Shown here: positions 11,113 through 29,172 of the stretch, in pieces
How positions within the stretch are numbered: position 1 is the stretch's first letter
Layout of the letters: the number at the start of each line of letters is the position of its first letter
Sequence record: OR352954
Origin: Escherichia phage AV124
Length of the DNA: 64,000 nucleotides
Strand: one strand, 5' to 3'
Program-made: the position numbers and the translations under genes
The notes under the pieces: model-generated
Told to the model about the DNA's origin: nothing
Databases searched by the model: none
Seen by the model: only the letters and a program-made list of their open reading frames with translations

Positions 11113-11805
11113 TTGAAGAAGAAAGTGATCATTCTTTATGATTACACTTCGGTCATGGCGCGTCCTTGGTTAGAGGCTGGCTATGAAGTTTGGACTTTTG
11201 ATGGTCAACATTCACCAGGAGTCACCCGCGAGGGTGACCTTGTTAAAGTCGGGATGTGGTTCTTCCACGACAAGACCGTTCAACAAGCTCAAGAGATCAA
11301 AGAAATGGTTGGTGACAATGTTCACATCGTCTTTGGTTTCCCGGAATGTACTCACCTGACCAATGCGGGTTCACGTCATTGGGCTAAGAAAAGAGCAGCA
11401 AACCCTAACTTCCAGAAGGAAGCAATGGAACTTTGCCTATTGGTAGAGAAGGTTGGAGATTTATATAATGTTCCGTGGGCCTTTGAAAACCCTGTCGGTG
11501 TTCTTTCTTCAATGTATCGAAAACCTGATTACATGTTTGATCCTAAGGATTACGGCGGGTATCTCCCAGCCAATGATATACACCCACTATATCCGCACGT
11601 ATACCCTCCTCAGGACGCGTATAACAAGAAGACGTGTATTTGGATGGGTAATGGCGCAAAACAGCCTGACAAGCTTCCTGTGAAGGAATTGTACAAGGAC
11701 AATCCGGGCTGGAAGAAGTGTGGTGGCAAATCCACCAAGACTAAAAATATTCGTAGTTGTACACCTCGCGGTTTTGCGGAGGCGTTTTACCAGAAAAATA
11801 AATGA
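11113..11805 (+). CDS. compact C5-cytosine methyltransferase-fold protein (no obvious target-recognition domain)
   Basis: 'FGFPECTHLTNAG' (cf. motif IV GGPPCQ..S.AG), 'ENPVG' (motif VI ENV), C-terminal 'TPRGFAEAF'; TTG start 11113 after AAGGGAGG. Confidence 0.4.
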   Translation: MKKKVIILYDYTSVMARPWLEAGYEVWTFDGQHSPGVTREGDLVKVGMWFFHDKTVQQAQEIKEMVGDNVHIVFGFPECTHLTNAGSRHWAKKRAANPNFQKEAMELCLLVEKVGDLYNVPWAFENPVGVLSSMYRKPDYMFDPKDYGGYLPANDIHPLYPHVYPPQDAYNKKTCIWMGNGAKQPDKLPVKELYKDNPGWKKCGGKSTKTKNIRSCTPRGFAEAFYQKNK

Positions 11806-13877
11806 GAGGGATAATGGGAAATGGACCGGATTGGGCGGCGTATCGCAAAGGCGGCAATGAAAACCCAAGAGCAGGTTTTGGAAGTAATCGCGGAGGCAAG
11901 TTGAGTTATAGTAACAATCGAGTAGAAGAGACCCTGGAATCAGTGCTGTCTGGCACCCGCATCATGGCTGTTCCCGAAATGAGTCTCTCTCTTGAAGCAG
12001 CACAGTATTTTAAGATCCGTTCTGCGGTATCCCCGGCGGATGGTATCACCCCGGTAGCAACATACTTGCCATATTATGATAAGTATGGGAAACTGACAGG
12101 ATTCAAGAAACGTGACTGGACGCTACAAAAGGAGAAGACGGGACACTTTTCAACTGTTGGCGCTGTGAAGGCATCATCTCAGTTCTTCGGGCAGCATGAA
12201 GCCTCTATGGGTGTTGGTCGTAAACAGATCAATATCGTAGAAGGTGAAGGTGACGTATGCGCAGCATGGCAGGCAGCGTATGAGATGGTCAAGGCTATGT
12301 CTACCAGCCCAAAAGCCAGTAAAGGCGTTAAGGACTGGGCCGATAGCATCCTAAAAGGTATCCGTCATATCCAGAACGACGAAGACATTGGCGGTCTTCC
12401 GACACTACCTTATGTCGGATTAAACTGTGGTACTGCAAACGCTGTTGATACTTTCGCAAACAACGAAAAGTTCATTCGCAGTTATGAGAAGGTAGTCTTA
12501 GGTTTTGATAACGATGAAGCAACAGCGTTAGAAAAAGAAAAGAAAATAAAGAAAGGTAAAGAAGCAACCGACGATGTAGCCAGCTTCCTGCTGTCAGAAA
12601 ACATTTACGTTGTGCGATATCCCAACGAGCGTAATGACCCGGATGGCTTTAAAGACATTCGTGACATGTTTGATGCTGGTAAGATACGTGAACTTTACGC
12701 AATGTTCACCAAAGCAGACGATCGCTATGTTCCTGATAAATTGATCGGTCTTAAGGATATCACCATTGAAAACCTTCGTAAGAAGAAAAAAGATGGTGTT
12801 CCATTACCGGGTATGCCGGGGCTTTACAACCTTACCAGAGGCCCTCGTACTGGTGAGCTTTGGACATTGACCGGGCCGTCTGGTGGTGGTAAGTCTACAA
12901 TCTCTCGTAAGATTGAATACGCAATCATTGATTATCTTCGTGATATGTCAATTCCCCGCCTCGATGGCTGGACCGAGAGTGAGAAAGTAGCTATCATCCG
13001 GCTGGAAGAGGATGAAGAAGAGTCTGTAAACAGCTTGTATGCTGAAGAGCTGAAGGTGGACCCTAAGGCATTTGTTGCTGACCCGGAGCAGTTCTTAACC
13101 GAAGAGCAACACCTTGAAATTCACCAACGCTGGATTAGGGAAGATAAGATTAAGATCTTCGATCACTTTGGTTCTATCCCGACAGACCAGCTTATTCAGA
13201 AACTTAAGCAGATGGTGTTCCTTGATGGTTGTAAATGGATCATCCTCGATCACCTGTCGATGGTAATCTCTGGTCTTAAGTCCGACAACGAACGTCGAGA
13301 CCTTGATAACATCATGACCGAGCTGGCGGCTTTCTGTAAGAAGTACGATGTTTTCATCTTATCAATCAGTCACATGAAGCGTAAAGAACTTCAGCTTCCG
13401 AAAGATAAAGATGGGAATCTATTACCGTTCTGGTATCCGGTCCGTAAAGAAGACCTGCGCGGTTCTGCGGCCCTTGAACAACTCTCATGGGTGGTTCTGG
13501 GTGTTGAACCAGAAGAGCTTCCTGACCGCTCCCGTGGACGTGTACGTATCGTGGTGCTGAAGAACCGCCCACACAAAAAACTGGGTATCGCTGATACAAT
13601 GGTTATGGATGACAACGGGCAGTTCTCCGATGCTTCCGGCTGGGAATGGGAAGATGGGATGTTCAAGCTTAATGGTGAAGTTATGCTTCGTCCTCAGAGT
13701 CTGATCCATCAACTCTCTCTGGAAACTCCGGTTGGAAAGGTAAATGTTCCGGCACCTGAGTATAAGCCAACCATCGATCTTGATAGGACACCAGTCCCTA
13801 CTCTTGATCCTGACGATGATACGCCTTTCGCCCCGATAGGATTGCAATACGCAAAACATGCAATTTATGTAATTTAA
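11802..13877 (+). CDS. primase-helicase, T7 gp4-like (TOPRIM + DnaB-like helicase)
   Basis: TOPRIM 'NIVEGEGDVCAAW', 'VVLGFDNDEA'; helicase Walker A 'GPSGGGKST', 'IILDHLSM'. Confidence 0.8.
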   Translation: MRGIMGNGPDWAAYRKGGNENPRAGFGSNRGGKLSYSNNRVEETLESVLSGTRIMAVPEMSLSLEAAQYFKIRSAVSPADGITPVATYLPYYDKYGKLTGFKKRDWTLQKEKTGHFSTVGAVKASSQFFGQHEASMGVGRKQINIVEGEGDVCAAWQAAYEMVKAMSTSPKASKGVKDWADSILKGIRHIQNDEDIGGLPTLPYVGLNCGTANAVDTFANNEKFIRSYEKVVLGFDNDEATALEKEKKIKKGKEATDDVASFLLSENIYVVRYPNERNDPDGFKDIRDMFDAGKIRELYAMFTKADDRYVPDKLIGLKDITIENLRKKKKDGVPLPGMPGLYNLTRGPRTGELWTLTGPSGGGKSTISRKIEYAIIDYLRDMSIPRLDGWTESEKVAIIRLEEDEEESVNSLYAEELKVDPKAFVADPEQFLTEEQHLEIHQRWIREDKIKIFDHFGSIPTDQLIQKLKQMVFLDGCKWIILDHLSMVISGLKSDNERRDLDNIMTELAAFCKKYDVFILSISHMKRKELQLPKDKDGNLLPFWYPVRKEDLRGSAALEQLSWVVLGVEPEELPDRSRGRVRIVVLKNRPHKKLGIADTMVMDDNGQFSDASGWEWEDGMFKLNGEVMLRPQSLIHQLSLETPVGKVNVPAPEYKPTIDLDRTPVPTLDPDDDTPFAPIGLQYAKHAIYVI

Positions 13878-13933: not shown

Positions 13934-16306
13934 ATTAAAGGTCTGTTTATACTGGATAACGAGGCCGATGGCCTGTTAGACGAAGTAACTAAGTACCATT
14001 GTACTTTGCTGAAAGAATTCGGAGTCAACAACTGGAACCTGTTTTTAGACCCCGCACACCCTGAATATGAAAGCGCTGTAGCCTTTGCCAGGAGCAAGAA
14101 GGATGCTAATCTTACAATTCGTTCATACGACGAGCTGGAAAGCTTCCTGAAGACTTGTAGAGCCATTGCGTGTCACAACCTGTTTGGTTATGACCTGCGC
14201 CTGTGGAAGAAGTTATCGGGCATTGAATATGATATGTTCAAAGACCCGAAGTGCATGGGGACGATTGGGGATACACAGGTAAATCTCTACGACACCCTCT
14301 CTATGAGCCGTGTGCTTTATCCTGACCGTCCATTACCTAACGGTTGCCCTGACTCTGTTCTTAACCCGGTAACCGGGAAGCGAGACCGTGTAGGTCCTCA
14401 TGGCCTGTTGGCCTGGGGCTACCGCGTAGCAAACAAGAAAGTTCAGATCGATGACTGGCGTAACCAACCCTTGTGGGAATACGTTAATCGTGTCTGGGAA
14501 GACGTTTTAATCAACGAGTTAGTATGGCAATCCCTGATCGATGAATCTACAGGTGCTCGCTGGCCTGATGACAAGCAGTTCATGTACAAAGATAAACCGG
14601 AAGGGATGCGGCAGATCAACTGGAAGAACGCGCTACGCCGCCGTATGTTGACTGATTACCTGATGATTGAGCAAGAAATTCAGGGTGTTCCATTCAATAA
14701 GCATGAAGCTGAAAAGCTGAGAGACCGTATTGATGTAATGATGAAAGAGATTGAGGAAGAAGTAGAACCTCAACTCCCGCTCAAAGAGATGACGAAGTCT
14801 CAACAGCCAAAATTCCCTGCTAATCCTTTTGATGGTGCAGGAAGAATTTCCCATCACGGGTGGAATTGGTTAGAATACAAGCTGGGATATCCAGTTAATC
14901 GTGAAGCGCTGGAATTCAAAGGTCCACCGAAGACGGCGTTTAAAGGTAACGGTGATGTAAGTGCAGCAGGGGAAAGATACTGTATCCAGAATGGTGTTGA
15001 AGACCCGGCAGCGATGCCAGACTTCATTAGAAGCCAGATAAAGAAAGAGAATACCCTTGTCCCATTGCCACCAGACCTAATGGAAAAGGCAATTGCCGAT
15101 CTTCGTGCTGGAAAGATGCCAGACCTGATGGTTCCGATGAAGATCTCGAACCAGGACGACATCAAGAAGTACCTGATCCGCGATGCGGGATGGAAACCAA
15201 CGCTCTGGCGTGTTAAAGATGTGACGAAAGACCAGTTCAAAAAGACCCGCGATGATGCGGAGGTTGATGGTCTGGTGCGTAAGTACATCGAAGAACTTGG
15301 AGAGTCCGAGTATAAATCTCTGATTCTTGAGCACTTAAATAATAGTGACGCAAAGTTCAATATCTCGGAAAACAAGTTCGACCATCGTCATGGTTCTGAT
15401 CGTGTTTACGAGGAGGTCTTCAAGAAGTTCCGACGCAAAGCTCGTCAACTGCCGACTTCACCACAGTTGAAGGATAACTTTGGCAAGCTGTGTCCTAACC
15501 TTGAAGTTATCGATGTTCACTTGGCTAAACAGATTGTTAAGTGGCTGTCATTACGTAACCGTCGTTCTGTTCTCGACCCTATTGACGAGGATAAAAACGA
15601 TACAGGGCTGTTGAATCATCCTCGCCTGGCGATTGATGGAAAACTTCCAGCTCGTTTCTCTGGTATCACTAACACCGGGCGTTGTAAGCACACCATTTGT
15701 GCAAACATGCCTAAGCCAGATCCTAAGGTGTTGTTGGGTAAAGAGATGCGTGGTCTCTGGGGTGTGACCGATGAATATTACCAGGTCGGTATCGATGGTT
15801 CTAACCTCGAAGGTATGATCGCGGCATGGGGTGCATATCAGTTCGATGGTGGTGAATACCTCCGTATCATGGAAAGTGGAGATGCCCACGCACGAAACGC
15901 CGAGGCATACACCAAAGCTTCTGGTACTCTGGTAACGCGTAACGGTGGTAAAGGGGTAACCTACGGCATCATGTATGGTGCTCAGGCAGCTAAGATTGCA
16001 GCAATGCTTCACATTTCCCTTGACAAGGCACAGGCGGTAATCGATGCTTTCTGGGATAGTAACTTTGGTTTGAAAGGTCGTAAGGAATGGCTTGAAAACT
16101 TCTGGGAAGCAACGGGTAAACGTTATATCCCTGGTCTCGATGGTCGTAAGATTTGGACCCGTTCTAAGCACTCTCTTCTGAATGCTTTCCAGCAAAACGG
16201 TGGTGCATCTCTATTCGATCTGGTTGGTATCCTGCTTCACTGGGAACTGATCAAACGTGGCTGGTATGATGATGACGTTCGTCGCCTGATTTACTACCAT
16301 AAATAA
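13934..16306 (+). CDS. DNA polymerase, family A, T7 gene 5-like; N-terminal segment (3'-5' exo + motifs A and B), ends just before motif C
   Basis: Exo I 'FILDNEADGLLDEVTKYHC' (cf. T7 'IVSDIEANALLESVTKFHC'), 'GPHGLLAWGYR', motif A 'GIDGSNLEG', motif B 'KGVTYGIMYGAQ'; no ATG/GTG/TTG between upstream TGA (13919) and Exo I, so start set at ATT 13934 after AGGAGG. Confidence 0.75.
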   Translation: MKGLFILDNEADGLLDEVTKYHCTLLKEFGVNNWNLFLDPAHPEYESAVAFARSKKDANLTIRSYDELESFLKTCRAIACHNLFGYDLRLWKKLSGIEYDMFKDPKCMGTIGDTQVNLYDTLSMSRVLYPDRPLPNGCPDSVLNPVTGKRDRVGPHGLLAWGYRVANKKVQIDDWRNQPLWEYVNRVWEDVLINELVWQSLIDESTGARWPDDKQFMYKDKPEGMRQINWKNALRRRMLTDYLMIEQEIQGVPFNKHEAEKLRDRIDVMMKEIEEEVEPQLPLKEMTKSQQPKFPANPFDGAGRISHHGWNWLEYKLGYPVNREALEFKGPPKTAFKGNGDVSAAGERYCIQNGVEDPAAMPDFIRSQIKKENTLVPLPPDLMEKAIADLRAGKMPDLMVPMKISNQDDIKKYLIRDAGWKPTLWRVKDVTKDQFKKTRDDAEVDGLVRKYIEELGESEYKSLILEHLNNSDAKFNISENKFDHRHGSDRVYEEVFKKFRRKARQLPTSPQLKDNFGKLCPNLEVIDVHLAKQIVKWLSLRNRRSVLDPIDEDKNDTGLLNHPRLAIDGKLPARFSGITNTGRCKHTICANMPKPDPKVLLGKEMRGLWGVTDEYYQVGIDGSNLEGMIAAWGAYQFDGGEYLRIMESGDAHARNAEAYTKASGTLVTRNGGKGVTYGIMYGAQAAKIAAMLHISLDKAQAVIDAFWDSNFGLKGRKEWLENFWEATGKRYIPGLDGRKIWTRSKHSLLNAFQQNGGASLFDLVGILLHWELIKRGWYDDDVRRLIYYHK

Positions 16307-27114: not shown

Positions 27115-27170
27115 TTATTGACATAACGAGTGTAAAGGGGTAAGATACCCCTTCACTCATAAATGGAGGA

Positions 27171-27512
27171 TTGATGACTGAAGAAGTAACCCCTACCAAC
27201 GAAGCACGATTCCTTGGACTAGACCCCAATCAGTTCGGAACTGTGGTCTTCCTCTCAAGTGCCAGCGTTCAGATGGCTGACCATATCAATTCTGAACCCG
27301 TCAGAAAAGAAATGGAACGTTTAATCAGTGAAGGCAAACACGAAACTATCGAAACGGCGTTGGCCTGGGTTCGTGGTCAGCGTAATGCTGTGATGCAACT
27401 GAGCGGAGCTTCAACCTTCGCGCAAAACCTTTTGGCGCAAGTTGAAGATATGTTGGTTGATCAACTTCTTGCTGTACCAGTTACACAAGCCGTTGAAGAA
27501 AAATCTGAGTAA
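27171..27512 (+). CDS. hypothetical protein
   Basis: ORF track, 113 aa. Confidence 0.4.
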   Translation: MMTEEVTPTNEARFLGLDPNQFGTVVFLSSASVQMADHINSEPVRKEMERLISEGKHETIETALAWVRGQRNAVMQLSGASTFAQNLLAQVEDMLVDQLLAVPVTQAVEEKSE

Positions 27513-27525
27513 TAAAGGAGAGAAG

Positions 27526-28713
27526 ATGAGCGTAGTAAACGAATACAAAGACCCAATGTCCGGCAAAGTAAACCACTTCGCAAAAGGCAGCATCAAATTC
27601 ATCAGCATCAAACCCGTGAAGAATGCTGATCAAGATGGTATTAAGCGTACCCACATCCCTGCACGTAACGGTCAACCTGCTAAGGTGATTGAAGCCACCC
27701 ACACTATCAGCTTTTTAATGCAGGAAGTTGATGCGGATAATAACGTGGTAGACCCACAGAGCCAAGGCGATTGGATTGGTATGGGTGAGAAGAAACTTCA
27801 CGCCAGCCACACGGATAAGGTTCAGGTCAAGTTTGATTCCGGTTATAAAGATATTCTAGCTGGCATGGTTGTATCTTTCCCGCTGAAAGTCTCTAAGAAT
27901 GGGGATAAAACCTATATCAACGGCACTTTAAGCGGTAAGACATTCAACATTCTGGATGAAAGCAAAGCGGGCCAAGCTGCCCCTCGTCAACAGCAGTCTT
28001 CTGCCCAGGCAGCACAGTCGGGCGGTGGTGTTAAGATCTATGGTGAGATTACCGAAATCGTAGGTAATCTGGCGACTGTTAATGACGAGAAGAACGGCCC
28101 CGGCGGTGTAGTTCTTTCCGATGAACAACTGGCACAGGTATCTGTTGGTGGACGAATGACTGCCTTTGTGGATATGTCTAACGGTAACATCCTGAATGGA
28201 TTCAAAGCTTACGGCCCCGCAGGTCAGAACAACGGCGGTTCTGGTGGTAAAAAGAGTGGTGGGTACGACCAATTTGGTGTTGAAACAGGGCACGCCATTA
28301 ACGGTCTGAAAGAGTTGATGGGTGCTGGTTATAAAGTGAAGGATGAGCTGGAGACAGCTAAAGCCATTCACCGTGCCACATTGGATATGAAAGCGTTCGT
28401 TGCGGAGCGTACTGGTAAGCCAGTCGATTCTAACCCGGTTGGTGCAAGTGCAGGCAACGCAATTCTGGTTGCATGTAGCCGTTTCAATGCTAAGTCAGAT
28501 GTTTCTGAAGCAACGATTCTGAACGCAGCCAAAGATGTGTATACAAAGCTCTCTGAGCCGCTTTATACGTTCATTAGTGAAAGTGCCAAGGGTGCCGATC
28601 AAACTCCGTCACAGCCCGTCCAGGAGCGTTTAACGACACCTCCTGCCCAAGAGGCGCCCGCTATGGATTTTGATGAGCCACCGATGGACTGGGACGAAGA
28701 AATACCGTTTTGA
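27526..28713 (+). CDS. single-stranded DNA-binding protein-like, with E. coli SSB-type acidic C-terminal tip
   Basis: C-terminus 'EPPMDWDEEIPF*' (cf. E. coli SSB '...EPPMDFDDDIPF'); Gly/Gln-rich linker 'GPAGQNNGGSGGKKSGG'; ATG 27526. Confidence 0.55.
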   Translation: MSVVNEYKDPMSGKVNHFAKGSIKFISIKPVKNADQDGIKRTHIPARNGQPAKVIEATHTISFLMQEVDADNNVVDPQSQGDWIGMGEKKLHASHTDKVQVKFDSGYKDILAGMVVSFPLKVSKNGDKTYINGTLSGKTFNILDESKAGQAAPRQQQSSAQAAQSGGGVKIYGEITEIVGNLATVNDEKNGPGGVVLSDEQLAQVSVGGRMTAFVDMSNGNILNGFKAYGPAGQNNGGSGGKKSGGYDQFGVETGHAINGLKELMGAGYKVKDELETAKAIHRATLDMKAFVAERTGKPVDSNPVGASAGNAILVACSRFNAKSDVSEATILNAAKDVYTKLSEPLYTFISESAKGADQTPSQPVQERLTTPPAQEAPAMDFDEPPMDWDEEIPF

Positions 28714-29141
28714 TAATGAAAAGATGTTCTAATTGTGGGGCTGAAAAGCCCCTTGAACAATTTCAGATCAGGAGGGCTTCTAAGGATGGATATACCGCAT
28801 CGTGCAAGATTTGTCTTAAGGAACGCGACCGAATCAGGGACCAAGATCCTGAACGTAAAGCAATGAAAGAACGATACGTTAAAGGTATCGGAAGAGAAGC
28901 GGCAGCACGAGCAAAGCGGAAGTATATCGAGAAGAATCCGAAGAAGAGATCTGTGCATATAAAAACAGGTAATGCGATCCGTGACGGCAAGATATTTAAA
29001 CAGCCTTGTGAAGTTTGCGGAAGTGAAAATGTACAAGCTCATCATTGTGATTACGATAAACCTTTAGAGGTTATGTGGCTATGTCCTATTCATCATGAAG
29101 AGTGGCACAGGCAATACGGCGAGGCAAAGAACGCTATATAA
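28710..29141 (+). CDS. HNH endonuclease (Cys-rich, zinc-binding type)
   Basis: 'CSNCG...CKIC' and 'CEVCGSENVQAHHCDYDKPLEVMWLCPIHHEEWH'. Confidence 0.65.
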   Translation: MIMKRCSNCGAEKPLEQFQIRRASKDGYTASCKICLKERDRIRDQDPERKAMKERYVKGIGREAAARAKRKYIEKNPKKRSVHIKTGNAIRDGKIFKQPCEVCGSENVQAHHCDYDKPLEVMWLCPIHHEEWHRQYGEAKNAI

Positions 29142-29147
29142 AAGAAA

Positions 29148-29172
29148 AGGCTCCCAAATGGGAGCCTTTTTT
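29148..29172. terminator. bidirectional intrinsic terminator between convergent gene blocks
   Basis: AAGGCTCCC-AAAT-GGGAGCCTT hairpin flanked by A-run on one side and T-run on the other. Confidence 0.6.

What the first reader, a model, noticed from the sequence alone, without database searches (positions are those of the whole stretch)
27526..28713. Phage SSB-like protein ends with a near-copy of the E. coli SSB C-terminal tip
The last residues 'EPPMDWDEEIPF' closely mimic the E. coli SSB tail '...EPPMDFDDDIPF', which recruits many host replication and repair proteins. The phage protein is unusually long (395 aa) with a Gly/Gln-rich linker. The tip may recruit or compete for host SSB-interacting proteins.
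Basis: partly seen in the sequence, partly recalled or inferred. Interest (0 to 1): 0.45.

Follow-up and report, generated by a model that had tools for sequence, protein, structure and literature searches.

The report
Phage SSB-like protein copying host tail
A Klebsiella phage replication gene encodes an unusual predicted single-stranded-DNA-binding protein whose last 12 residues copy the docking tail of the host's own SSB; a 2026 preprint described a homologue in an E. coli phage, so this is a new member of a recently recognised family, not a new kind of thing.

Summary
ORF 27526-28713(+) encodes 395 aa ending EPPMDWDEEIPF. This aligns end-to-end with the E. coli and Klebsiella SSB tails (…EPPMDFDDDIPF), and the family consensus is an exact copy.

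The protein is not a canonical SSB, since no Pfam, NCBIfam or PDB sequence match lies outside the tail. It belongs to phrog_4477 ("unknown function"). AlphaFold predicts a basic OB-like domain (1-150), a small acidic OB domain (167-232), a four-helix bundle (247-354) and a disordered acidic tail. The extra length is folded domains, not one long linker.

It ends a T7-type replication module (gp4-like primase-helicase, T7-like polymerase). A 97 %-identical phage has no other annotated SSB.

It is a full-length homologue (39 % identity, E 2e-87) of Bas52_0087. An April 2026 preprint describes that protein as SSB-like with a C-tip and as a factor needed to trigger the DRT10 defence, with a link to host ExoI/SbcB. 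So this is a new member of a known kind. ssDNA binding and tail partners remain untested.

Side finding: the primase-helicase in this window also ends in an SSB-like tip (DDDTPF), followed by a 15-aa cap (APIGLQYAKHAIYVI). The same cap follows the tip of unrelated phage SSBs, is conserved as protein, and was not found in the searchable literature.

The parts
27526..28713 (+). SSB-like gene (395 aa plus stop), family phrog_4477, orthologue of Bas52_0087 / PVP-SE1 gp038 / rV5 gp209
27516..27520 (+). Shine-Dalgarno AGGAG, 5 nt before the ATG
   Evidence: read directly
27118..27146 (+). sigma-70-like promoter match (TTGACA-17-TAAGAT) upstream of ORF 27171-27512 and the SSB-like gene; consensus match only
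27526..27975 (+). domain 1 (aa 1-150): basic beta barrel (pI 9.0), OB-like, predicted main ssDNA-binding domain; present in long and short family forms
27976..28023 (+). linker 1 (aa 151-166, AAPRQQQSSAQAAQSG), disordered
28024..28221 (+). domain 2 (aa 167-232): small acidic OB fold (b1-b2-b3-helix-b4-b5; pI 4.4); missing in the ~280-315-aa short form of phi92-like and phAPEC8-like phages
28222..28263 (+). linker 2 (aa 233-246, GQNNGGSGGKKSGG), disordered
28264..28587 (+). four-helix bundle (aa 247-354; pLDDT above 90). Most widely conserved part of the family. Holds D248 and Y347, equivalent to the DRT10-escape substitutions D252V and Y351C of Bas52_0087
28588..28710 (+). disordered acidic tail (aa 355-395, net charge -8) with two MDFD-type repeats
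28675..28710 (+). tip EPPMDWDEEIPF with a free C-terminal Phe; copy of the enterobacterial SSB-Ct
28716..29141 (+). free-standing endonuclease gene (phrog_2340, HNH/EndoVII-related) directly after the stop codon
29145..29170 (.). 11-bp GC-rich stem-loop between the converging replication and tail-fibre operons; the scan called it on the minus strand only, and it lies where PVP-SE1 has annotated terminators on both strands
11802..13877 (+). T7 gp4-like primase-helicase (691 aa) ending ...DPDDDTPF-APIGLQYAKHAIYVI
13812..13874 (+). helicase tail: SSB-like tip DDDTPF (13812-13829) plus 15-aa cap APIGLQYAKHAIYVI (13830-13874)
14006..16306 (+). family-A DNA polymerase whose best solved relative is T7 gp5; candidate phage partner of the acidic tails

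Best explanation
The gene encodes the phage's own replicative single-stranded-DNA-binding protein. It belongs to a non-canonical family (phrog_4477) that fills the gp2.5 role in a T7-type replisome.

The basic N-terminal OB-like domain is inferred to bind ssDNA. The helical bundle is inferred to mediate self-association or partner contact. The disordered acidic tail presents a free ...DEEIPF-COOH end that copies the host SSB-Ct.

When the protein coats phage ssDNA, that tip is inferred to bring host SSB-interacting proteins (ExoI/SbcB, PriA, RecQ, chi and others) to phage DNA, or to compete with host SSB for them. It probably also contacts the phage polymerase, as the T7 gp2.5 tail does.

Shown here: the sequence, the family, the predicted folds, the gene context and the homology to Bas52_0087. 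Shown elsewhere: the homologue is needed to trigger the DRT10 defence, and the host ExoI dose modulates that defence. Inferred: ssDNA binding, oligomerisation and every tail partner.
For: The tail aligns end-to-end with E. coli and Klebsiella SSB tails, and the tip is conserved across about 200 family representatives.

Domain 1 is basic and the tail has net charge -8.

The gene closes a replication block holding a Pif1-like helicase, a gp4-like primase-helicase (T7 gp4, E 1e-26) and a T7-like polymerase (E 8e-16). No other SSB is annotated in the 97 %-identical phage Iguana_ER37 outside the stretch matching the window, and none was seen among the window ORFs scanned.

The protein shares 39 % identity over its full length with Bas52_0087 (E 2e-87). 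The preprint reports that protein as SSB-like with two OB folds and an FDDDIPF C-tip. It is required for DRT10 activation, and SbcB overexpression weakens the defence.

Some GenBank records already label homologues as SSB.

Against: Domain 2 is acidic and dispensable in the short form, so it is unlikely to bind DNA.

No ssDNA binding has been measured for any family member. In the preprint, expression of the homologue alone neither harmed cells nor triggered DRT10, which argues against strong titration of essential host SSB partners.

The window variant has W for F and EE for DD, and the effect on binding is unknown.
Confidence: 0.7

Rival explanations
1. The tail is mainly an internal replisome signal, as in T7, where the acidic Phe-ended tails of gp2.5 and gp4 both dock on the polymerase. 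On this reading the likeness to host SSB reflects shared ancestry or shared chemistry and does not serve to hijack host proteins.
For: The phage's gp4-like primase-helicase also ends in an acidic ...DDDTPF motif, and in 17 related contigs it ends in D/E-rich ...(T/S/E/C)PF. The best solved relatives of the helicase and the polymerase are T7 gp4 and T7 gp5. The T7 gp2.5 tail and its terminal Phe are needed for polymerase contact (quoted).
Against: The family consensus copies 11-12 consecutive residues of the enterobacterial SSB tail (PPMDFDDDIPF). That is far more than a generic acidic tail ending in Phe. The helicase tip differs at the position before Pro (T/S/E/C rather than I/V/L). The homologue's link to host ExoI points to host pathways. 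The two readings do not exclude each other.
Confidence: 0.25
2. The protein is a decoy, not a DNA binder. It soaks up host SSB-interacting proteins, such as nucleases and restart factors, to protect phage DNA or shut down host repair.
For: The tip is a near-exact mimic. SbcB dosage affects the outcome for the homologue.
Against: The OB-like folds, the basic domain 1, the position in the replication operon and the lack of another SSB all point to DNA binding. Expressing the homologue alone was not toxic.
Confidence: 0.08
3. The protein is a recombination mediator or annealing protein (RecO-like: OB fold plus helical domain) that carries an SSB-type tail.
Against: Those matches have rmsd of 6.7-7.6 A and sit among dozens of generic OB hits. 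RecO binds the SSB tip and does not carry one (own knowledge). The relative Iguana_ER37 encodes a separate DprA-like mediator.
Confidence: 0.04
4. The resemblance is a chance match or a non-functional remnant of a recombination event with a host ssb gene.
For: The last 40 nt of the ESCO5 homologue are 90-92.5 % identical to the E. coli ssb 3' end, so DNA exchange is conceivable.
Against: The tip is conserved across homologues that are only 25-30 % identical elsewhere, and across about 200 cluster representatives. The window's own tail DNA is only about 82 % identical over 39 nt (E 3).
Confidence: 0.01

Closest known systems
Bas52_0087 (QXV84166.1) of Escherichia phage RudolfGeigy (Vequintavirus), the SSB-like trigger of DRT10/UG17 (bioRxiv 10.64898/2026.04.29.721553)
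   Same: Collinear full-length homologue (39 % identity, E 2e-87). Same four-part architecture. Same position at the end of the replication block. Tip ...FDDDIPF. The escape residues D252 and Y351 correspond to the conserved D248 and Y347 here.
   Different: The host is Klebsiella. The tip variant is MDWDEEIPF. The helical domain belongs to one of several roughly 30 %-identical allelic types. No experiment exists for this protein, and ssDNA binding has not been measured for either.
E. coli / Klebsiella SSB (PF00436; PDB 1eqq, 4mz9, 7f2n) and its SSB-Ct tip
   Same: The last 12 residues are nearly identical, lie at the extreme C-terminus and follow a disordered P/Q/A-rich segment. The SSB-Ct hexapeptide DDDIPF is the hub for many partner proteins (PMC5872125).
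   Different: The DNA-binding core is unrelated in sequence. There are two OB-like domains plus a helical bundle per chain instead of one OB domain. The linkers are short.
T7 gp2.5, with the matching acidic tail of T7 gp4
   Same: SSB of a replisome built from a gp4-type primase-helicase and a family-A polymerase. Acidic disordered tail ending in Phe. The helicase carries a similar tail (gp2.5 facts quoted; gp4 tail from own knowledge).
   Different: No sequence similarity to gp2.5. The tip is a copy of the host SSB-Ct (IPF), not ...DDF.
Phage HK620 SSB, which stimulates Sak4 (PMC5928155)
   Same: A phage SSB whose last six residues (NDYPPF, SSB-Ct-like) are needed to recruit a phage partner.
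   Different: HK620 SSB is a distant canonical SSB homologue, and its partner is an annealase.
Multi-OB SSBs such as eukaryotic/archaeal RPA
   Same: More than one OB fold per chain. RPA domains are among the best structural matches (3e0e, 4gnx, 2pi2, 8aa9).
   Different: No sequence relationship. The second OB fold here is acidic and optional.

Membership tests
phrog_4477 / Bas52_0087-like phage SSB-like proteins | Full-length match to the family profile | tested here: met
   phrog_4477 E 1.5e-167, residues 1-395 on profile 1-393; 61 full-length homologues
phrog_4477 / Bas52_0087-like phage SSB-like proteins | Collinear homology to the studied member, including the residues hit by escape mutations | tested here: met
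   39 % identity, E 2e-87. D252 corresponds to D248 (invariant in A1) and Y351 to Y347
phrog_4477 / Bas52_0087-like phage SSB-like proteins | Acidic disordered C-terminus ending in (I/V/L)PF | tested here: met
phrog_4477 / Bas52_0087-like phage SSB-like proteins | Triggers DRT10 during infection | not testable with these tools
   Shown genetically only for Bas52_0087
Bacterial SSB family (Pfam PF00436, TIGR00621) | OB domain that matches the SSB profile | tested here: not met
   No Pfam hit. NCBIfam SSB models match only residues 358-395 and score far below cut-off (16 against 260 bits). The PDB profile search hits only tails
Bacterial SSB family (Pfam PF00436, TIGR00621) | Conserved acidic C-terminal tip (DDDIPF) at the extreme C-terminus | tested here: met
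   DEEIPF-stop, aligned end-to-end with 1eqq_A
Bacterial SSB family (Pfam PF00436, TIGR00621) | Homotetramer of OB domains | not testable with these tools
   No multimer prediction or experiment was available
OB-fold nucleic-acid-binding superfamily | Five-stranded beta barrel with a helix between strands 3 and 4 | tested here: met
OB-fold nucleic-acid-binding superfamily | Binds ssDNA | not testable with these tools
   Needs EMSA or fluorescence titration
T7 gp2.5-like SSB | Sequence or close structural similarity to gp2.5 | tested here: not met
T7 gp2.5-like SSB | Works with a gp4-type helicase and a family-A polymerase; acidic Phe-ended tail shared with the helicase | tested here: met
   (context and tails only; the interaction itself was not tested)
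Functional SSB-Ct ligand | Binds the SSB-Ct pockets of host partners (ExoI, chi, PriA, RecQ and others) through a free Phe carboxylate | not testable with these tools
   The sequence requirements are present. Binding needs peptide assays

The most novel reading that the evidence does not exclude
The tail may be one half of a phage 'PF-tail code' rather than only a host-SSB mimic. In this phage group both the SSB-like protein and the gp4-like helicase end in an SSB-Ct-like tip. Either tip can carry a phage-specific 14-16-aa cap (APIGLQY-x-x-h-h-x-x-h).

The cap is strongly conserved as a peptide while its synonymous codon positions are scrambled. It is attached to at least three unrelated protein types: the helicase and two unrelated SSB scaffolds. 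It is almost absent from bacterial species genomes.

The cap would remove the free Phe carboxylate that normal SSB partners need. It could therefore convert a promiscuous host-type tip into a dedicated ligand or inhibitor for one still unknown target, most economically a conserved gammaproteobacterial protein. Alternatively it could hide the tip from host nucleases or immune sensors.
Probability: 0.3. Interest if true: 0.7.

Novelty: new member of a known kind. Interest (0 to 1): 0.4.

Why it matters
SSB tails are the hub through which bacteria recruit more than a dozen replication and repair enzymes. A lytic phage that puts an exact copy of that hub on its own, structurally different, ssDNA-binding protein can redirect or starve those enzymes. 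Several immune systems (DRT10, Retron-Eco8, DARNA, AbpAB) sense phage SSBs.

This Klebsiella-phage member extends the family beyond E. coli phages. It shows that the three folded domains are shuffled independently between close relatives, including the helical domain where immune-escape mutations map in the homologue.

It also points to a second, capped form of the tail on both SSBs and a helicase. Because Vequintavirinae-like Klebsiella phages are therapy candidates, knowing which phage protein trips host defences has practical value.

Tried and rejected
1. Canonical SSB, T4 gp32 or T7 gp2.5 membership is rejected. No Pfam, NCBIfam or PDB sequence signal exists outside the tail, and none of 97 short-form relatives has a Pfam SSB domain.

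2. One long Gly/Gln linker is rejected. There are two ~15-aa linkers between folded domains.

3. Recent capture of the tail from the host ssb gene is inconclusive. The ESCO5 homologue is 90-92.5 % identical to E. coli ssb over 40 nt, but identical peptides alone would give an estimated 78-85 %. The window's own tail is only about 82 % identical (E 3).

4. The idea that the cap sits on either the helicase or the SSB-like protein but never both is rejected. All four combinations occur.

5. The idea that the cap is a by-product of a homing-endonuclease insertion is rejected. A related endonuclease lies downstream in only 4 of 46 loci, and synonymous sites are randomised while the peptide is invariant.

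6. Docking of the cap onto the folded protein is not supported (pLDDT 51-55).

7. A beta-clamp-binding motif, a PIP box and an ssrA-like degron were considered for the cap by eye. None fits its invariant positions (own reasoning, not tested).

A degenerate DNA pattern was used instead.

9. Foldseek against the PDB gave nothing significant, with a best E of 0.025.

Full report
**Observation.** The ORF at 27526-28713 on the + strand is real and translates to 395 aa ending AMDFDEPPMDWDEEIPF. The ATG at 27526 follows an AGGAG five bases upstream, and all homologues begin MSV(I/V)N. The longer ORF listed from a TTG at 27442 is therefore not the gene.

A PDB sequence search with the last 33 residues returns SSBs as its only meaningful hits. 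These are E. coli SSB (1eqq_A/4mz9...RPQQSAPAAPSNEPPMDFDDDIPF) and 7f2n_A, both aligned right up to the last residue. A family profile gives the same result. Nine of the last twelve residues are identical and the other three are conservative.

The family consensus is an exact PPMDFDDDIPF, with D388, D390, P394 and F395 invariant in 36 sequences that are otherwise down to 27 % identical. An exhaustive profile search found 201 cluster representatives. Nearly all complete ones end in an acidic run followed by (I/L/V)PF, with a few LPW or LDF variants. The resemblance is conserved and selected, not chance.

**Where the window comes from.** The gene is 97 % identical in DNA to Klebsiella phage vB_KpnM_Iguana_ER37. 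It is 95-96 % identical to KP12 and KNP2, and 78 % identical to Salmonella phages PVP-SE1 and SSE121 (Vequintavirinae, Seunavirus). It is annotated "hypothetical protein" in all 20 records listed. PVP-SE1 gp038 is noted there as similar to rV5 gp209.

A translated search finds relatives in 360 phage records. They include Vequintavirus (rV5-like), Justusliebigvirus (phi92-like) and Phapecoctavirus (phAPEC8-like). A minority of depositors call the gene SSB.

**What the protein is.** It has no Pfam family. It has no NCBIfam match except SSB models touching residues 358-395, far below cut-off. It has no PDB sequence relative outside the tail. It matches PHROG phrog_4477, "unknown function", over its full length (E 1.5e-167). 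All 97 short-form relatives tested also match that family, and none has a Pfam SSB domain.

AlphaFold2 with a 36-sequence alignment gives mean pLDDT 78 and the following parts:
- a beta domain at 1-150;
- a disordered linker at 151-166;
- a small domain at 167-232 whose elements run b1-b2-b3-helix-b4-b5, the textbook OB order;
- a linker at 233-246;
- a four-helix bundle at 249-354 with pLDDT above 90;
- a disordered tail from 356 to the end.

Both beta domains are therefore OB-like at fold level, on predicted models. Domain 1 is basic (pI 9.0). Domain 2 is acidic (pI 4.4) and optional. The tail has net charge -8. Domain 1 is the likely DNA binder.

**Context.** The + strand block upstream holds an RNA ligase, rIIA/rIIB-type genes, a Pif1-like helicase, a DnaB_C-type primase-helicase, a family-A polymerase, NMN-salvage genes and small ORFs. 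The primase-helicase's best solved relative is T7 gp4 (E about 1e-26). The polymerase's best solved relative is T7 gp5 (E 8e-16).

The SSB-like gene is the last conserved gene of the block. It is followed by a free-standing endonuclease (phrog_2340, E 6e-43). A stem-loop at 29145-29170 then faces the converging tail-fibre operon, where PVP-SE1 has annotated terminators on both strands.

No other SSB is annotated in Iguana_ER37 at 12-37 kb or 60-143 kb. The rest of that genome corresponds to the window, where the large ORFs and the eight ORFs at 24.6-29.1 kb that I scanned showed none. This is a T7-type replisome without a recognisable gp2.5, and the gene is the obvious candidate for that role.

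**Literature.** A bioRxiv preprint of 30 April 2026 (10.64898/2026.04.29.721553) isolated escape mutants of BASEL phage Bas52 against the DRT10/UG17 reverse-transcriptase defence. Both mutants mapped to Bas52_0087 (D252V and Y351C).

[quoted passage not shown] They note an FDDDIPF motif like the E. coli SSB C-tip. They report no toxicity and no DRT10 activation from the protein alone, and weaker defence when host SbcB (ExoI) is overexpressed. They propose that the protein interferes with SbcB on ssDNA.

I located Bas52_0087 in phage RudolfGeigy and compared it with the window protein. They share 39 % identity and are collinear over the full length (E 2e-87). D252 aligns with the invariant D248 and Y351 with Y347, and both lie in the helical bundle.

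It has not been tested biochemically for any member.

**Mechanism.** My best reading, at about 0.7, is a replicative SSB whose tail is a hub. Two sets of partners are plausible and do not exclude each other.

The first is host SSB-interacting proteins. An 11-12-residue copy of the host tip goes well beyond a generic acidic tail, and the ExoI genetics point the same way.

The second is the phage's own polymerase, by analogy with T7. There the gp2.5 tail and its last Phe are needed for polymerase contact (quoted), and the gp4 helicase carries a similar tail (own knowledge). The analogy is strengthened by the window itself, because the gp4-like primase-helicase ends ...DPDDDTPF followed by APIGLQYAKHAIYVI. 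In all 17 related viral contigs the helicase ends in an acidic ...(T/S/E/C)PF, with or without that addition.

**The cap.** About a fifth of close family members, though not the window protein, carry 14-16 extra residues after the tip Phe. The consensus is APIGLQY-x-x-h-h-x-x-h. Among the rV5-like phages Bas51, Bas52 and Bas54 it is a clean 45-nt insertion or deletion between the Phe codon and the stop.

A degenerate DNA pattern for PFAP(I/V/M)GLQY found 46 loci in IMG/VR. Twenty-seven are canonical EcSSB-type proteins on 15-57-kb contigs. Six are phrog_4477 proteins. Three are the 691-aa primase-helicase. The rest are other small proteins.

In 41 distinct DNA versions the peptide is invariant while every synonymous position is scrambled, with four Pro, three Ala and four Gly codons and six Leu codons in use. 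Selection therefore acts on the peptide.

The same pattern found only six places in 100,044 bacterial species genomes. About four are expected by chance, and only two are real SSB tails. The capped form also occurs in E. coli lambdoid prophages next to ERF recombinases (34 of 5,426 genomes), in coliphages such as mEp013 and mEp554, and in Vibrio phages. The motif strings do not occur in the searchable literature.

Three explanations were tested and rejected:
- Reciprocal placement on the helicase or the SSB, because all four combinations exist.
- A homing-endonuclease passenger, because a related endonuclease lies downstream in only 4 of 46 loci.
- Intramolecular docking, because pLDDT is only 51-55.

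A capped Phe lacks the free carboxylate that SSB-Ct pockets use (own knowledge). The cap should therefore change what the tail binds. Its target is unknown.

**Other observations.** The three folded domains recombine independently among close relatives. Identity to the window protein across domain 1 / domain 2 / helical bundle is 93/98/32 % for P0013, 30/83/75 % for P0036 and 83/42/27 % for P0037. The helical bundle, where the immune-escape substitutions map in the homologue, thus exists as several roughly 30 %-identical alleles in otherwise similar phages.

Different free-standing endonucleases sit immediately 3' of the gene in different lineages.

Novelty is modest, because this is a new member of a family recognised in 2026. 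The capped-tail module and the helicase tail are the parts most likely to be new.

Noticed in passing
window 13812-13877 (end of ORF 11802-13877, + strand): The T7 gp4-like primase-helicase ends in an SSB-Ct-like acidic tip (DPDDDTPF) followed by a 15-aa cap, APIGLQYAKHAIYVI. Among ORFs of 60 codons or more in the window, only this one and the SSB-like protein end in such a tail.
   Followed up: yes
L010-L055 (IMG/VR), L088-L089, L002:23905-24033, L004:3370-3448, L006:2725-2772: The cap APIGLQY-x-x-h-h-x-x-h follows ...DDIPF on unrelated carriers: 27 canonical SSBs, 6 phrog_4477 proteins, 3 primase-helicases and others. The peptide is invariant while synonymous sites are scrambled. There are 46 hits in viral contigs against 2 real ones in 100,044 bacterial species genomes. 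The function is unknown, and the motif strings were not found in the searchable literature.
   Followed up: partly
alignment A1; window 27526-28587: The three folded domains are mosaic between closely related phages. Identity to the window protein across OB1/OB2/helical is 93/98/32 % for P0013, 30/83/75 % for P0036 and 83/42/27 % for P0037. This suggests recombination at the disordered linkers. The helical bundle, where DRT10-escape mutations map in Bas52, exists as several roughly 30 %-identical alleles.
   Followed up: partly
window 28716-29141; L005:2736-3314; L006:2744-3367; L011, L017, L042, L048: Free-standing endonuclease genes of at least two families (phrog_2340 here, phrog_1035 in Bas51) sit directly after the SSB or SSB-like stop codon in several lineages, including lambdoid phage mEp554. 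The conserved tip-coding DNA looks like a recurrent homing site.
   Followed up: partly
L003:2891-2930 against E. coli ssb; window 28675-28713: The last 40 nt of the phAPEC8-like homologue (ESCO5) are 90-92.5 % identical to the 3' end of chromosomal ssb in 5,421 of 5,426 E. coli genomes. The window's own tail is only about 82 % identical. This is slightly more than identical peptides alone would predict, so exchange with host or plasmid ssb is possible but not shown.
   Followed up: partly
window 28651-28710: The tail contains a tandem pair of acidic-aromatic units (A-MDFDE-PP-MDWDEE-IPF). Most relatives have the same (V/M)DFD...PPMDFDDD arrangement.
   Followed up: no
L003:2042-2929, L004:2501-3448: phi92-like and phAPEC8-like phages carry a short form (295-315 aa) that lacks the acidic second OB domain. 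That domain is therefore dispensable for the core function.
   Followed up: yes
one search hit table; row P0005: There are database oddities. Twenty-one records named 'Campylobacter phage' (e.g. A142, A135, C3) carry rV5-like or phi92-like versions of this gene, with about the same identity to the query as coliphage versions, which suggests mislabelled hosts. UniRef names the SalP219 homologue 'Tail fiber protein'.
   Followed up: no
(H114-H116): The C-terminal helicase half of the window's primase-helicase is 65 % identical to that of Vibrio cholerae phage ICP1. That is closer than to the rV5-like coliphages (about 60 %).
   Followed up: no
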